Shown here piece by piece: positions 45,554-50,928 of a stretch of DNA of 64,000 nt. Location of the stretch: positions 95,170,001-95,234,000 of the forward strand of contig NC_043005.1 in the NCBI RefSeq assembly GCF_006345805.1. The letters run 5' to 3'. The stretch's first letter is position 1; each line of letters starts with the position of its first letter. Made by a program: the position numbers. The stretch is from Octopus sinensis (taxonomy: Eukaryota).

Positions 45554-48500
45554 GTATGTACGTATATATGTAACGTGATCAGTGGAGGAGAGATAAATTC
45601 TCGGTGAGCTGAGTTAGTTTTCCATTTCCGATTCCTTGTAATAGCTATTTCACTTATCTCGTCTTGAGGAAATCATATAGGTTGTTAATACCGATCGTGA
45701 TATATAGACTGTTTATATATAGTGGAAGCTGTTCCTAGCGATTACTATACAGAGTCTGTTCATTAAAAGATTGTTAAATAGAGGCAATTCGTACAGTAAT
45801 TATTATGTAGGAAGTATTAGTCATACGCTGTTATATTGGAGCTGATCATACGGTTGTTCAACCCCAAGTTGGATCTGATTGATCTGACCTATAGACCAAA
45901 AACATTCCAGTCATAATTATCATACCCTTTACTCTCTTTTTCAGATTTTCGTTTTGTCAGGCAAAGTGCAATACGGACTACACCATGAAATGTGGCCTTT
46001 TTAGAACATAGTAGGGTACGATTTGATGGTGATTTTACAGTTATACCTCGGGGTCGGTGGACTACGAGAAGGCAGCATTATTGGCTGGTGCATAAGATGT
46101 TGCTTATAGTGTTGGCATAGCACATTTATAAGGTATTACAATTTTAGTTATAGCCTAGAATTCCTGTAATAAGTTCCTTTAAAGTTAAGACGATAAAACA
46201 AATTTGTGTAATCTCGACAGGACGATAAACAAACTCCATTAAAACGAAAATAAAATGTGTTTTGTCCGAGCGATACAACGTCGTAATATTTTCAGTGGGA
46301 TAAGAATTCATGGACTATGCGCCATTGCTTCTAAAAACAGCCTTATCCAATCGGACATTTCTCTTACTCTACTAAAACATTGTCTAGTTACAACATGCTA
46401 CAGCATGCAGCAAAATGTTACTCGTAAACGAGTTATATTTTTTCTTTATGTGACAGATCATGAAATAAATAGGGGCGTGGTGTTTCAATGGCGGATATAC
46501 ATTGGGATCCCTGTCCCATAGGCCTCGGTTCAAATCTACTATAGAAACCTCGTTGTCTTTCTGAGCAGAATTTTCCTATTCCACGTTGTCCCGCTTCGCC
46601 CATCTCAGGTGTCAGGAATAGAAATCAGATCTGAAAATGTTACGCGCAAAAGGACTAACTTCCTACCCAGGGGAAATTTTATTTCACATATGTTGTAAGC
46701 TATAATACTGAAGCAAACCATTTCTCCTTGAAAGCCTGTATATTCATGAGACATTTGATAGCTAAATATTATTTGCAGCTATGATTACATACATACAAAT
46801 ATGCACACACATATAGAGAGTGGAAGCCATTTAACGTGATCAAATTAAGATGACCCCTTTTCAGTAGCAATAAGCGGTTGATAACATTAAGCATTTTGAT
46901 AACTATAACCGGTTAATATCGTTATTCGACATTACAATAAGTGGCTTTTACTACGTATATATCTTGCCTGCTAATCGTTGCATTTACTGTGTAACTGAAC
47001 AAATACCTATTGTTTTCTAATTATATTCCACTGAGTGCAGCACACATTCTAACTATAACAAGCCAATGCAATCATATTAAGGGTCATACAGTCAAAAGTG
47101 CATGTATCAAAGAATTATCCCCAAATATCGCAGCCTGGCCTTTCGCATATATGAATATATTACATGTGCGTATGCATTTGTGCATGCGTGTGAAATCTTG
47201 TACACCATTGCACAATGTGTTTAAACGTATATTTATGAGGGTTCTTCAACAATTTAATAAACAATGATAGGCTTCGAACGACATATTTTGCTATTATATA
47301 TACAGTTCAATTTTACAGAAGACAAAAGACGAAGCTCAGGCGAGGGAACAACAAGCAGGTATATTAGGTTGACGCGAGGGAAGAATGGAAAAATATTTGA
47401 CGTTTCGAACCTACGCTCTTCGACAGAAAGGGACGAGAGAAAGAAAATAGAGAGAGAACAAATAAAAAAACAGAGGGAGAGAAAGAATTATATATGCACA
47501 TACACTCACAACTGCAAAGGTGCAAAGTGTTACAAAATTCGCTGTGAGGGGGTAACACCATACCTACATACTTACAATTATGCTGAAACACAATTACGCA
47601 TAAACATGTACACAAACATAGCAATATATGACGGGGTGGGGGCGGCGATGAAAAGTTCCTGGCTTTAAGGGTATCGTGAAAGGCCTGGTTCGAGGCCCAA
47701 CCTTCCGAGTTCTTTTACAGGGCTTAGAAAAACTGAAGGACCACTGCAATAAGTGTGTGAATCTGAGGGAAATATGTTAAATAAAATCATAAGTAACTGA
47801 TCCTCCTGTATTTTCTTTTACCCAAAGTGAGGAACTTTACAGCACGCCCTCATATACACAAGTGTTATATAAATACTCATGCGTATTTCTATACTAACAT
47901 CTCAACAAATATACTTCGAAAATCTGAAACTAATATCAAAATGGTAAATCCTACGCGGTTAACAAATGATTAACTTCCTTCTAAAAACATTGAAGGACTA
48001 AACGAATTGCGGACTTGGTTGGTCGCATTGATTTGATTGTAGCGTGATTGATAATCCAACTTTTCACGTCAACAACCGTTTATGATTTTTAAGAAGTTAT
48101 CAAGCAAACTGGCTCCCGCTCACCACTATATATGTATGTGTTTGTGCGAACTAGTATACTCGAGCCGTCAAAAATAACGTCATTAATAAAAAAAAATATG
48201 CTGAAAATATTTATAAGCGCAAGAGTGGCTGTGTGGTAAGTAGCTTGCTTACCAACCACATGGTTCTGGGTTCAGTCCCACTGCGTGGCACCTTGAGCAA
48301 GTGTCGTCTACTCTAGCCTCGGGCGGACCAAAGCCTTGTGAGTGGATTTGGTAGGCGAAAACTGAAAGAAGCCGTCGTATATATATATTATATATATATA
48401 TATTAATCAATTTAGGGTAGCAAAAATTCAGTAAAAATTTATCGCTACCACGGCCTAATGGAAAAGAGAAAATAGTCAAAGACTAAATATGTATAATATA

Positions 48501-50893
48501 ACAATTTAGGAATGGCCTAGACAGGCCATTCGTCCACTAGAAGGAGCAGCCATAACTCCAACCGCCAGTAGTGTAATTCGGAAATAAGTGAAAATTTAAA
48601 AAAACATTTACCCTAATTCATCTTTTATACGATGCATCGTTTCAGTGTCTTTAATGATAGACCAGCTTAATTAAATTAAATTAACTAGTCTACCATAGGT
48701 CACACTTCATCAGTAAAAGAAACCTGGGAGAGACGGATATATACGAGGCGACTGTATCAATGCCTCGGGAATATCTGTCTTAAATTTCAAGACCAACGCA
48801 TTCGCGCCAAACTTATCGGCAGCAAATATAAACTGCCGATTCATCTCAGAATTAGTCAGAAAATTATCAATTAATCAATTTAGGGTAGCAAAAATTCAGT
48901 AAAAATTTATCGCTACCAGCGGCCTAATGGAAAAGAGAAAATAGTCAAAGACTAAATATGTATAAATATAACAATTTAGGAATGGCCTAGACGGCCATTC
49001 GTCCACTAGAAGGAGCAGCCATAACTCCAACCGCCAAGTAGTGTAATTCGGAAATAAGGGGAAAATTTAAAAACATTTACCCTAATTCATCTTTTATACG
49101 ATGCATCGTTTCAGTGTCTTTAATGATAGACCAGCTTAATTAAATAAATTAAGCTAGTCTACCATAGGTCACACTTCATCAGTAAAAGAAACCTGGGAGA
49201 GACGGATATATACGAGGCGACTGTATCAATGCCTCGGGAATATCTGTCTTAAAATTTTAAGACAAACACCAACGCATTCACGCCAAACTTATCGGCAGCA
49301 AATATAAACTGCCGATTCAATCTCAGAATTAGTCAGAAAATTATCAATTAATCAATTTAGGGTAGCAAAAATTCATTAAAATTTATCGCTACCAGCGGCC
49401 TAATGGAAAAGAAAATAGTCAAAGACTAAATATGTATAATATACACAATTTAGGAATGGCCTAGACAGCCATTCGTCCACTAGAAGTAGCACGCCCTAAC
49501 TCCACCGCCAAGTAGTGTAATTCGGAAATAAGTGAAAATTTAAAAACATTTACCCTAATTCATCTTTTATACGATGCATCGTTTCAGTGTCTTTAATGAT
49601 AGACCAGCTTAATTAAATTAATTAAATTAAGCTAGTCTACCATAGGTCACACTTCATCAGTACAAGAAACCTGGGAGAGACGGATATATACGAGGCGACT
49701 GTATCAATGCCTCGGGAATATCTGTCTTAAAATTTTCAAGACCAACGCGATGAAGTGTGACCTATGGTAGACTAGCTTAATTTAATTAAGCTGGTCTATC
49801 ATTAAAGACACTGAAACGATGCATCGTATAAAAGATGAATTAGGGTAAATGTTTTTAAATTTTCACCTTATTTCCGAATTACACTACTTGGCGGTTGGAG
49901 TTATGGCTGCTCCTTCTAGTGGACGAATGGCCTGTCTAGGCCATTCCTAAATTGTTATATTTATACATATTTAGTCTTTGACTATTTTCCTTTTCCATTA
50001 GCCGCTGGTAGCGATAAATTTTTACTGAATTTTTGCTACCCTAAATGATTAATTGATAATTTTCTGACTAATTCTGAGATTGAATCGGCAGTTTATATTT
50101 GCTGCCGATAAGTTTGGCGCGAATGCGTTGGTCTTGAAAATTTTAAGACAGATATTCCCGAGCATTGATACAGTCGCCTCGTATATATCCGTCTCTCCCA
50201 GGTTTCTTTTACTGATGAAGTGTGACCTATGTAGACTAGCTTAATTTAATTTAATTAAGCTGGTCTATCATTAAAGACACTGAAACGATGCATCGTATAA
50301 AAGATGAATTAGGTAAATGTTTTTAAATTTTCCCCTTATTTCCGAATTACACTACTTGGCGGTTGGAGTTATGGCTGCTCCTTCTAGTGGACGAATGGCC
50401 TGTCTAGTCCATTCCTAATTGTTATATTTATACATATTTAGTCTTTGACTATTTTTTCTCTTTTCCATTAGGCCGCTGGTAGCGATAAATTTTTACTGAA
50501 TTTTTGCTACCCTAATTGATTAATTGATAATTTTCTGACTAATTCTGAATTGAATCGCAGTTTATATTTGCTGCCGATAAGTTTGGCGCGAATGCGTTGG
50601 TCTTGAAAATTTTAAGACAGATATTCCCGAGGCATTGATACAGTCGCCTCGTATATATATCCGTCTCTCCCAGGTTTCTTTTCTGATGAGTGTGACCTAT
50701 GGTAGACTACTTAATTAATTTAATTAAGCTGGTCTATCATTAAAGACACTGAAACGATGCATCGTAATAAAATGAATTAGGGTAAATGTTTTTAAATTTT
50801 CCCCTTATTCCGAATTACACTACTTGGGCGGCGTTGGAGTTATGCTGCTCCTTCTAGTGGACGAATGGCCTGTCTAGGCCATTCCTAAATTGT

Positions 50894-50928
<35 letters not shown>

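What the first reader, a model, noticed from the sequence alone, without database searches (positions are those of the whole stretch)
48402..50895. Non-coding tandem hammerhead array: candidate cephalopod retrozyme producing ~469-nt self-cleaved or circular RNAs
Seen: about 5.3 copies of a ~469-bp unit with no protein ORF. Each has a Type I HHR with a 7-bp stem I, CUGAUGA, stem II extended by a ~19-bp hairpin, GAAA, a perfect palindrome CGAUGCAUCG as stem III, and a GUA site. Predicted plus-strand cut sites at 49828, 50297 and 50766 are exactly 469 nt apart. Known: animal non-LTR retrozymes and PLE pseudo-LTRs use tandem Type I HHRs to excise monomers that can circularise. Inferred: this is a non-autonomous ribozyme retroelement mobilised by the PLE RT/GIY-YIG machinery seen nearby, and a tandem insertion is what rolling reverse transcription of a circular RNA would give.
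Basis: partly seen in the sequence, partly recalled or inferred. Interest (0 to 1): 0.9.

Follow-up and report, generated by a model that had tools for sequence, protein, structure and literature searches.

The report
Two opposed hammerhead-ribozyme repeat arrays
A 2.5-kb non-coding insertion made of two back-to-back arrays of a 469-bp repeat that carries a hammerhead self-cleaving RNA motif: a fairly ordinary animal "retrozyme", whose layout looks like the work of a Penelope-type retrotransposon enzyme.

Summary
The repeat and the hammerhead (HHR) motif are real, but the layout was misread. There is no single 5.3-copy head-to-tail array. There are two opposed arrays of one 469-bp unit: 48402-49748 (HHR sense on the minus strand, 2.8 copies) and 49749-50898 (plus strand, 2.5 copies). 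Their 5'-truncated ends are joined head-to-head at 49748|49749.

Three of six HHR copies pass a strict type I descriptor (cuts after 50297 +, 49097 -, 48628 -). One has a helix I mismatch, one an indel next to the core, and one is truncated at the junction. None of 300 simulated windows gave a motif. No Rfam hammerhead model scored.

The block sits inside the TA/TATG microsatellite of a SINE-like repeat, and an uninterrupted copy of that repeat lies at 55724-55364. So it is an insertion.

Tandem units, an inverted 5'-truncated arm and an AT-microsatellite target are the published insertion signature of Penelope-like elements (PMC8557442, PMC11167929).

Best reading: a non-autonomous non-LTR retrozyme, integrated by PLE-type priming on both DNA strands. 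It is a new member of a known kind.

Cleavage, circular RNA, genome-wide copies and the cephalopod origin stayed untested.

The parts
48215..48372 (+). Left half of the host SINE-like repeat (tRNA-like head) that was interrupted
   Evidence: blastn finds 5 further copies or fragments in the window. The copy at 55724-55569 (90% identity) runs on without interruption into the right half.
48373..48401 (.). (TA)n: left remainder of the target microsatellite
   Evidence: Sequence read. The paralog has a TA/TATG microsatellite at the same place.
48402..49748 (-). Minus-sense arm. Read from 49748 down to 48402 it holds unit positions 297-469, a full unit (49569-49097, 473 nt), a full unit (49096-48628, 469 nt) and positions 1-225.
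   Evidence: TRF period 469, 2.8 copies, 95% matches; blastn of the monomer.
49749..50898 (+). Plus-sense arm: unit positions 386-469, a full unit (49829-50297), a full unit (50298-50766) and positions 1 to about 132. TRF and blastn extend it to 50908 into the TA repeat.
   Evidence: TRF period 469, 2.5 copies, 94% matches; blastn; boundary read.
49748..49749 (.). Head-to-head junction of the two 5'-truncated arms; blunt, with no filler and no microhomology
   Evidence: Sequence read against the unit. It is not a mirror: 32% identity over 300 nt.
48621..48720 (-). Complete type I HHR, cut predicted between 48628 and 48627
   Evidence: Strict descriptor: helix I 7 bp, helix II 5 bp, helix III 4 bp. 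The centroid fold shows helices I and II.
49090..49189 (-). Complete type I HHR, cut predicted between 49097 and 49096
   Evidence: Strict descriptor; fold z-score -7.1.
49563..49667 (-). HHR with an intact core but one U-to-G change in the 5' strand of helix I (6 of 7 pairs); cut predicted between 49570 and 49569
   Evidence: Alignment. It fails the strict descriptor, and its MFE takes another fold.
49749..49835 (+). HHR truncated at the junction: it starts at G5 and lacks C3, U4 and the 5' strand of helix I. The GUA site at 49828 could be cut only with the core of another copy (double-hammerhead).
   Evidence: Alignment; descriptor fails. The swapped-dimer geometry comes from the cofold; the cutting in trans is inferred.
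50205..50304 (+). Complete type I HHR, cut predicted after 50297
   Evidence: Strict descriptor. The HHR fold at -32.1 kcal/mol is 1.2 kcal/mol above the MFE. The MFE of the 469-nt monomer contains all three HHR helices.
50676..50773 (+). Damaged HHR as assembled: one A lost in CUGAUGA-A, the A before C3 lost, helix I unpaired; GUA at 50766
   Evidence: Alignment. The fold shows helices II and III but not helix I. The damage may be consensus noise.
50899..51034 (.). (TA)n, then (TATG)n and TG-rich tract: right remainder of the target microsatellite
   Evidence: TRF rows 50894-51004 and 50998-51034. The same TATG/TG-rich tract is present in the paralog.
51035..51205 (+). Right half of the interrupted SINE-like repeat
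   Evidence: blastn: positions 9-71 match 55511-55449 (90%) and positions 136-171 match 55399-55364 (89%), directly downstream of the left half in the paralog.
55364..55724 (-). Uninterrupted paralog of the host repeat (an 'empty site' stand-in)
   Evidence: Sequence read; both flanks of the array map to it 57 nt apart.

Best explanation
The block 48402-50898 is one insertion of a non-autonomous, non-coding retroelement of the animal 'non-LTR retrozyme' kind. Its unit is 469 nt and carries a type I hammerhead ribozyme.

Shown: the repeat, its two opposed arms, the HHR motif, and the insertion into a pre-existing SINE microsatellite.

Inferred mechanism. A multimeric or circular retrozyme RNA was copied by the RT-endonuclease of a Penelope-like element acting in trans. 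The enzyme cut an AT-rich (TA)n target on both strands, and each 3'-OH primed cDNA synthesis. Each cDNA ran for more than two unit lengths. The two incomplete (5'-truncated) cDNAs were then joined head-to-head. Both cDNAs began at equivalent places in the RNA, 6 A/U-only nt after a CCUAAAUUG motif that occurs twice per unit.

When transcribed, whichever arm is read in the sense direction yields tandem HHRs. Their weak 4-bp helix III (palindrome ACGAUGCAUCGU) should favour cleavage as a double-hammerhead in multimers. That would release 469-nt monomers, most cleanly 49096-48628 on the minus strand, which lies between two intact HHRs. Host tRNA ligase could circularise such monomers, as reported for other retrozymes.
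For: Repeat and orientation.

HHR: all core positions are present (C3-A9, G12-A14, A15.1-U16.1, A17) and three helices form in 3 of 6 copies under a strict descriptor. The same descriptor found 0 sites in 300 simulated windows. The MFE of the 469-nt monomer forms helices I, II and III on its own, z = -5.8.

Double-hammerhead: the cofold of two HHR segments gives -80.9 kcal/mol against 2 x -33.3, with a 12-bp intermolecular helix III. The helix III hairpin alone gives only -1.0 kcal/mol.

Retrozyme traits: no ORF; GC 35.6% and 61% of bases paired as a circle. These match PMC7229834 (low GC, highly self-paired, tandem type I HHR).

Insertion: the left and right flanks are the two halves of one repeat that is contiguous at 55724-55364.

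PLE signature: PMC8557442 describes 5' truncation, partial tandems, an inverted 5'-truncated copy at the 5' end and a microsatellite, (TA)n, bias. PMC11167929 reports that a purified PLE protein cleaves and extends both DNA strands, prefers AT-rich DNA and starts reverse transcription at defined internal RNA sites.

Ends: both ends lie 6 nt after CCTAAATTG. All 8 window matches to this 9-mer are inside the arrays, against 0.76 expected.

Other support: variants are mostly private to single copies and none is specific to one arm. PLE remnants exist in the same window. A 2026 preprint (10.64898/2026.07.22.740005; abstract and section 14 read) derives vertebrate retrozymes from PLE pLTRs.
Against: No Rfam hammerhead model scores here, even at E<=10. 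This is probably because helix II is about 64 nt long, but it is still a failed test.

The helix II closing pair is A10.1-U11.1. PMC4209133 calls the G10.1-C11.1 pair highly conserved, so activity may be low.

Only 3 of 6 HHRs are intact as assembled.

The unit (469 nt) is above the ~170-400 nt range given for retrozyme RNAs in PMC7229834.

Only one locus was seen. The monomer has no other match in the 64-kb window, and no eukaryotic genome collection was open, so mobility rests on a single paralogous empty site.

No target-site duplication can be read inside a (TA)n tract.

Classical twin priming on one linear RNA predicts that the 5' start of one arm abuts the 3' end of the other. Here the gaps are about 154-160 nt (positions 297 against 142, and 386 against 225).

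No 30-40-bp PLE 'tail' was identified.

Copies differ by 9-19 gap events but only 1-7 mismatches per pair, so the consensus is noisy and fine details may be unreliable.

The PLE remnants in the window carry no detectable HHR and no similarity to the unit.
Confidence: 0.62

Rival explanations
1. An HHR-bearing satellite that grew in place. A single small insertion, or a PLE pLTR fragment, was amplified at the DNA level by unequal crossing-over or slippage, and one part was later inverted by a DNA rearrangement. No multimeric or circular RNA template and no dual-strand priming are needed.
For: The tandem structure itself. The 2026 preprint's discussion (passage read) proposes local amplification of retrozyme sequences into tandem repeats. 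Variants are mostly private, which also fits recent local amplification.
Against: An inversion leaving two arms directly abutted needs one breakpoint exactly at the outer edge of the array. The two outer ends stop at equivalent positions, 6 nt after the same 9-mer, which a DNA rearrangement does not predict. Both arms are 5'-truncated at the centre with their 3' ends outward, which is the geometry of primed cDNAs.
Confidence: 0.17
2. An assembly artefact. The inverted join, or part of the copy number, was created by mis-assembly of a repeat-rich region. The true locus holds a simple head-to-tail array.
For: Gap events outnumber mismatches (9-19 against 1-7 per pair of units), mostly as changes in homopolymer length. 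This indicates a noisy consensus. PMC8557442 (passage read) notes that such complex structures often cause problems in WGS assemblies.
Against: The junction is not a mirror: 32% identity over 300 nt, with unit positions 297 and 386 on the two sides. That excludes a simple fold-back read. The two outer flanks are the two halves of one repeat family member, so both arms belong to one locus rather than to two loci joined by error.
Confidence: 0.13
3. Not a free retrozyme but the terminal repeat (pLTR) block of a Penelope-like element whose coding part was lost here. The unit exists in the genome only as part of autonomous PLEs.
For: PLE pLTRs carry HHRs and form tandem and inverted structures (PMC4209133, PMC8557442). 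The preprint 10.64898/2026.07.22.740005 finds retrozymes to be sister to pLTRs.
Against: The whole insertion (2497 bp) is bounded by the two SINE halves and holds only the 469-bp unit with no ORF. More than two full units per arm is more than a pLTR pair. The PLE-type minimal HHR descriptor finds nothing in the window. This HHR has a full helix III hairpin, unlike the minimal PLE form described in PMC4209133.
Confidence: 0.08

Closest known systems
Metazoan non-LTR retrozymes (Cervera & de la Pena 2020, PMC7229834; e.g. Mytilus galloprovincialis, Acropora millepora, axolotl)
   Same: A non-coding tandem repeat of a few hundred bp with one type I HHR per unit. GC is low (35.6%) and the RNA is strongly self-paired (z = -5.8). 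PLE sequences are present in the same genome.
   Different: The unit is 469 nt, against ~170-400 nt reported. Helix II is about 64 nt, whereas PMC4209133 gives 4 bp for canonical animal HHRs. The closing pair is A10.1-U11.1. There are two opposed arrays: the words 'inverted' and 'opposite' do not occur in the main text of PMC7229834. Expression and circles are untested here.
Newt/salamander satellite 2 and axolotl HHRs, and the ASBVd double-hammerhead
   Same: A weak helix III capped by a palindromic tetraloop, so that two tandem copies can build an extended helix III and cleave as a dimer (PMC7229834, PMC4209133, PMC6155905, passages read). Here the dimer is favoured by about 14 kcal/mol.
   Different: Helix III here has 4 bp including 15.1-16.1, against 1-2 bp in amphibians. 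No loop 1-loop 2 contacts could be recognised. There is no sequence relation.
Penelope-like element insertions (Craig et al. 2021, PMC8557442; Frangieh et al. 2024, PMC11167929)
   Same: 5' truncation, partial tandems, an inverted 5'-truncated copy joined at the 5' side, and an AT-rich/(TA)n microsatellite target. The enzyme cuts and extends both strands and starts reverse transcription at fixed internal RNA sites.
   Different: No RT/GIY-YIG ORF in the element. No 30-40-bp tail was recognised. The HHR has a full helix III hairpin, not the minimal PLE form (PMC4209133).
Dolichopoda cave-cricket pDo500 satellite and Schistosoma Sm-alpha (seen only as reference-list and figure-legend entries of PMC6155905; details recalled)
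   Same: Animal repeats that encode type I HHRs and process their own transcripts. From the family name and recall, pDo500 has a unit of similar size.
   Different: Sm-alpha is, from recall, a dispersed SINE-like element rather than an array.

Membership tests
Hammerhead ribozyme, type I | Conserved core: C3 U4 G5 A6 N7 G8 A9, G12 A13 A14, A15.1-U16.1, H17 not G | tested here: met
   The core is complete in 4 of 6 copies. One copy has lost an A at A9/10.1 (50671-50778). One is truncated before G5 (49749). The cleavage triplet is GUA in 6 of 6.
Hammerhead ribozyme, type I | Three helices around the core, with helix I open-ended | tested here: met
   Helix I 7 bp, helix II 5 bp plus extension, helix III 4 bp in 3 of 6 copies under the strict descriptor. 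All three helices appear unforced in the MFE of the 469-nt monomer. The constrained HHR fold is 1.2 kcal/mol above the MFE.
Hammerhead ribozyme, type I | G10.1-C11.1 closing pair of helix II (called highly conserved in PMC4209133) | tested here: not met
   A10.1-U11.1 in the five copies with an intact CUGAUGA-A. The effect on activity is unknown.
Hammerhead ribozyme, type I | Match to a curated covariance model (Rfam hammerhead families) | tested here: not met
   0 matches at gathering score in the window. 0 hammerhead matches among the 12 at E<=10 in 48200-51100. In the whole-window E<=10 run, 150 of 240 rows were shown and none was a hammerhead. The ~64-nt helix II probably costs the score (inference).
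Hammerhead ribozyme, type I | Tertiary contact between loop 1 and loop 2 | tested here: inconclusive
   Helix II has an internal loop after 5 bp that could take the place of loop 2. No recognisable conserved loop nucleotides were seen. The copies are too alike for covariation.
Hammerhead ribozyme, type I | Self-cleavage after H17 | not testable with these tools
   This needs in vitro transcription of monomer and dimer templates.
Metazoan non-LTR retrozyme | [quoted passage not shown] | tested here: met
   (GC 35.6%). The unit of 469 bp is just above the 150-450 bp repeat range quoted in PMC7229834. PBS and PPT motifs were not searched for.
Metazoan non-LTR retrozyme | Monomer RNA highly self-paired | tested here: met
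   MFE -135.3 kcal/mol, z = -5.8 against 100 shuffles. As a circle, -130.0 kcal/mol with 61% of bases paired.
Metazoan non-LTR retrozyme | Expressed as linear and circular monomer RNA | not testable with these tools
   No transcriptome was available.
Metazoan non-LTR retrozyme | Mobile: many dispersed loci and insertion polymorphism | tested here: inconclusive
   One locus only in 64 kb. One paralogous empty site supports insertion. No eukaryotic genome collection was open.
PLE-type integration product | 5' truncation, partial tandem, and an adjacent inverted 5'-truncated copy | tested here: met
   The arms start at unit positions 297 and 386 and meet at 49748|49749, with 3' ends outward. This matches the passages on the structural characteristics of Naiad elements and the Fig. 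2 legend in PMC8557442.
PLE-type integration product | AT-rich or microsatellite target | tested here: met
   (TA)n on both sides, inside the TA/TATG tract of the host repeat.
PLE-type integration product | A 30-40-bp 'tail' at one end | tested here: inconclusive
   The two ends lie about 94 nt apart in unit coordinates. No separate tail was recognised.
Autonomous Penelope-like element | An ORF with RT and a GIY-YIG endonuclease | tested here: not met
   No ORF in the insertion. The window's GIY-YIG pieces lie at 13.5-15.5 and 20.3-21.7 kb, with a further remnant at about 37.2-37.7 kb on the minus strand recognised only by peptide likeness. All are broken; Pfam scores for the three GIY-YIG ORFs are 17-20 bits against a cut-off of 22.6.

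The most novel reading that the evidence does not exclude
This locus is the footprint of a single event in which a dimeric PLE RT-endonuclease cut both strands of a (TA)n tract and copied a retrozyme RNA from both nicks, each time for more than two unit lengths. Both copies started at a sequence-defined site (CCUAAAUUG plus 6 nt) that is present twice in the RNA. If so, it would be direct structural evidence that animal retrozymes are integrated by PLE machinery through dual-strand target-primed (possibly rolling-circle) reverse transcription. It would also name a candidate RT initiation signal in a non-autonomous element. A read-through transcript of the opposed arms would fold into a dsRNA of about 1.2 kb, a possible source of small RNAs or an editing substrate that feeds back on the family.
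Probability: 0.25. Interest if true: 0.6.

Novelty: new member of a known kind. Interest (0 to 1): 0.4.

Why it matters
Retrozymes are thought to spread through small circular RNAs copied by a borrowed reverse transcriptase. In the papers read here, the link to Penelope-like elements rests on co-occurrence and on pLTR similarity (PMC7229834; preprint 10.64898/2026.07.22.740005). A retrozyme insertion that shows the PLE-specific tandem-plus-inverted geometry, sits in a TA microsatellite, has an empty-site paralog beside it, and has both ends at one repeated motif gives a concrete, checkable prediction for how integration works. It is also a practical warning: such arrays can be opposed, so cut sites must be sought on both strands. 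As an object, though, it is one more HHR repeat family in an invertebrate-like genome, and nothing about its chemistry was tested.

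Tried and rejected
Rfam. The whole window at gathering score gave 0 matches. The region 48200-51100 at E<=10 gave 12 weak matches, mostly to miRNA families plus K10_TLS and SNORD52, and none to a hammerhead. The whole window at E<=10 gave 240 matches, of which 150 were shown, all driven by low-complexity sequence and none a hammerhead. I did not try to score the HHR with its helix II shortened, because that would mean sending an altered sequence.

A PLE-type minimal HHR descriptor gave 0 sites in the window and 0 in 200 simulated windows. 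The PLE remnants here therefore show no HHR by my descriptors.

The 12-mer CGATGCATCGTA at 17215 (minus strand) has no HHR core around it and was rejected as unrelated.

Classical single-RNA twin priming was tested by asking whether the 5' start of one arm abuts the 3' end of the other. It does not (gaps of about 154-160 nt). The result is inconclusive, because circular or multiple templates remove the prediction.

A fold-back (mirror) artefact was rejected: 32% identity over 300 nt.

Arm-specific shared variants were sought, to see whether the arms have separate histories. None was found among 79 variable columns.

Host taxon. The protein search gave 6 unnamed hits. The atlas search gave only broad animal phyla. 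The cephalopod claim therefore stays unverified.

Pfam on 10 window ORFs gave only 3 sub-threshold GIY-YIG hits. On P0001, RVT_1 scored 29.1 bits against a cut-off of 29.6.

Literature on cephalopod hammerheads or retrozymes. The search for 'hammerhead ribozyme' plus 'octopus' found 5 papers, 4 of them listed; from title and abstract none describes such an element. The search for 'retrozyme', 'hammerhead' and 'cephalopod' found 176 papers holding at least 2 of the 3 terms, 25 of them listed. The only one holding all three terms is PMC8557442, which speaks of cephalopod Naiad remnants. This is not proof that nothing is in print. Supplementary tables, which were closed, may list cephalopod genomes.

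Not done. There was no genome-wide count of the unit.

Full report
WHAT IS THERE

Tandem Repeats Finder reports two arrays with a 469-bp period, not one. They are 48402-49742 (2.8 copies, 95% matches) and 49749-50908 (2.5 copies, 94% matches), and their consensus units are reverse complements of each other. Aligning the monomer 49829-50297 back to the window gives the exact layout.

- Minus strand, read from 49748 down to 48402: unit positions 297-469, a full unit (49569-49097), a full unit (49096-48628), then positions 1-225.
- Plus strand, from 49749: positions 386-469, a full unit (49829-50297), a full unit (50298-50766), then positions 1-142.

The inverted-repeat search shows the same thing, with arms of up to 204 nt and 87-100% complementarity. 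The two arms therefore meet head-to-head at 49748|49749. Both are 5'-truncated there, and their 3' ends point outward. The join is blunt. The monomer has no other match in the 64-kb window. No stop-to-stop frame over 77 aa overlaps the region.

THE RIBOZYME

In the sense strand each unit reads as follows: 7 nt of helix I, CUGAUGA, a helix II of about 64 nt, GAAA, the palindrome CGAUGCAUCG, UA, and then the 3' strand of helix I. Helix II consists of 5 bp, an internal loop and an 18-19-bp AU-rich hairpin.

An alignment of the six copies shows the core and helix III to be invariant wherever they are present. A strict descriptor asked for CUGANGA, helix II of at least 4 bp, GAAA, helix III of at least 3 bp closed by A15.1-U16.1, H17, and helix I of at least 5 bp.

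- Three copies pass: cuts after 50297 (+), 49097 (-) and 48628 (-).
- No site was found in 300 simulated windows with the same first-order composition, both strands.
- The copy at 49563-49667 (-) fails through one U-to-G change in helix I.
- The copy at 50676-50773 (+) has lost an A next to the core and its helix I pairing.
- The copy at 49749-49835 (+) begins at G5 because the junction cuts it.

The best-supported excisable monomer is 49096-48628 on the minus strand, which lies between two intact HHRs.

Folding results:
- The HHR fold lies 1.2 kcal/mol above the MFE for a 111-nt segment.
- The MFE of the whole 469-nt monomer forms helices I, II and III unforced, z = -5.8.
- Helix III alone is worth only -1.0 kcal/mol as a hairpin.
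- Two copies cofold into a swapped double-hammerhead with a 12-bp helix III, at -80.9 against -66.6 kcal/mol.

This is the behaviour described for newt, axolotl and ASBVd hammerheads (PMC4209133, PMC7229834, PMC6155905; passages read). In such a dimer the GUA at 49828 could still be cut by the core of a neighbouring copy; that is an inference.

Against the ribozyme:
- No Rfam hammerhead model matches.
- The helix II closing pair is A-U, where PMC4209133 calls G10.1-C11.1 highly conserved.
- The copies are too alike for covariation.
- Cleavage itself is untested.

IT IS AN INSERTION

The left flank (48215-48372) is a tRNA-like SINE head. The right flank (51035-51205) is another repeated segment. 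In the window both occur together at 55724-55364 on the minus strand, 57 nt apart and joined by a TA/TATG/TG-rich microsatellite. The two flanks of the array are thus the two halves of one composite repeat, and the array sits inside that repeat's internal microsatellite, with (TA)n on both sides.

This paralogous 'empty site' shows that the array came in from elsewhere. It also shows that both arms belong to one locus, which argues against a chimeric assembly. A fold-back artefact is excluded, because the two sides of the junction are not mirror images: 32% identity over 300 nt, with unit positions 297 and 386.

HOW IT PROBABLY GOT THERE

Craig et al. 2021 (PMC8557442, passages read) describe PLE insertions as highly 5'-truncated and organised in partial tandems. 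[quoted passage not shown] Frangieh et al. 2024 (PMC11167929, main text read) show that a purified PLE protein cleaves and extends both DNA strands, unlike R2 and LINE-1. It also prefers AT-rich DNA and starts reverse transcription at fixed internal sites of the RNA.

The locus fits each of these points. In addition, both outer ends stop exactly 6 A/T-only nucleotides after the 9-mer CCTAAATTG, which occurs twice per unit (8 matches, all inside the arrays, 0.76 expected; terminal copies at 48408-48416 and 50884-50892). This coincidence was noticed after the fact, but it is what a sequence-guided start of reverse transcription would give. Microhomology with the (TA)n primer is an alternative that I cannot exclude.

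I therefore read the block as two cDNAs, primed from the two nicked strands, each copied over more than two unit lengths and joined at their incomplete 5' ends.

PMC11167929 proposes the linear form for PLEs and finds HHR cleavage dispensable for insertion in vitro. The simplest single-RNA twin-priming geometry is not met (gaps of about 154-160 nt). No target-site duplication can be read in (TA)n, and no PLE 'tail' was seen.

THE NEIGHBOURHOOD

The window holds PLE-like remnants:
- frameshifted ORFs at 20.3-21.7 kb ending in a GIY-YIG motif;
- two further GIY-YIG ORFs at 13474-14232 (+) and 15058-15531 (-);
- a piece at about 37.2-37.7 kb (-), next to the N run 37359-37458, recognised only by peptide likeness.

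The Pfam GIY-YIG scores of the three ORFs are below the curated cut-off: 20.4, 18.2 and 17.1 bits against 22.6. The ORF 21100-21627 finds 6 longer proteins, the best being a 759-aa protein with an RT domain. An atlas search places it among animal GIY-YIG/HTH_animal clusters.

All of these pieces are broken, lie 11-35 kb away, show no similarity to the unit and have no detectable HHR. They show that PLEs lived in this genome. They do not show that they moved this array.

QUALITY OF THE COPIES

Pairs of full units differ by 1-7 mismatches but 9-19 gap events, and most of the gaps are changes in homopolymer length. That ratio points to consensus noise, so the true copies are probably 98.5% identical or better and the insertion is young. 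Some 'damaged' ribozymes may in fact be intact. Variants are mostly private, and none is specific to one arm among the 79 variable columns. This fits a single origin for both arms.

COMPARISON AND NOVELTY

The element meets the descriptive features of metazoan non-LTR retrozymes (PMC7229834): tandem units, a type I HHR, no coding capacity, GC of 35.6%, a strongly paired RNA and PLEs in the genome. The differences are a larger unit (469 nt), a very long helix II, an A10.1-U11.1 pair and the opposed arms. The main texts I searched on retrozymes do not mention opposed arms: 'inverted' and 'opposite' occur 0 times in PMC7229834, and only in a reference title in the 2026 preprint. That preprint already argues that retrozymes derive from PLE pLTRs (abstract and section 14 read).

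I found no paper describing a cephalopod hammerhead repeat. However, the host of this window was not identified by any search, and supplementary tables were closed.

VERDICT

This is a new member of a known kind. It has one useful feature: the insertion geometry and its paired end points bear on how retrozymes are integrated. Interest is 0.4.

Noticed in passing
48408-48416 (-) and 50884-50892 (+): Both outer ends of the insertion stop exactly 6 A/T-only nt after the 9-mer CCTAAATTG, which occurs twice per unit. All 8 window matches lie in the arrays, against 0.76 expected. It may be an RT initiation signal, or microhomology with the (TA)n target.
   Followed up: partly
48402-50898: Full units differ by 1-7 mismatches but 9-19 gap events per pair, mostly changes in homopolymer length. 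This looks like consensus noise of the assembly rather than evolution.
   Followed up: partly
55364-55724 (-); also 8687-8831, 5650-5768, 29820-29942, 12564-12738: A composite SINE-like repeat (a tRNA-like head, an internal TA/TATG microsatellite, and a second conserved half) occurs several times in the window. The copy at 55.4-55.7 kb is uninterrupted.
   Followed up: partly
12949-14232 (+) and 15058-15531 (-): Two ORFs with GIY-YIG-like motifs, below the Pfam cut-off, face each other tail-to-tail about 800 bp apart. They are possibly remnants of another PLE lineage or of an inverted PLE insertion.
   Followed up: no
20315-21700 (+) and about 37206-37685 (-): Two remnants of one PLE family give similar peptides in shifted frames. 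The second abuts the N run 37359-37458, which was left untouched. Downstream of the first lies a CT-rich low-complexity tract (21.8-22.3 kb).
   Followed up: partly
17204-17215 (-): The 12-mer CGATGCATCGTA also occurs once outside the arrays, inside an unrelated degraded repeat. No CUGAUGA/GAAA core lies around it, so it is taken as chance.
   Followed up: yes
48402-50898, both strands: A transcript running through the junction would contain about 1.15-1.3 kb of self-complementary sequence and could fold into a long dsRNA. This is a possible small-RNA or editing substrate (inference).
   Followed up: no
32940-33676 (-) and 34193-34525 (+): ORFs that, from recall of such sequences, look like tails of non-LTR retrotransposon reverse transcriptases. 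Pfam gave no hit at E<=0.01.
   Followed up: partly
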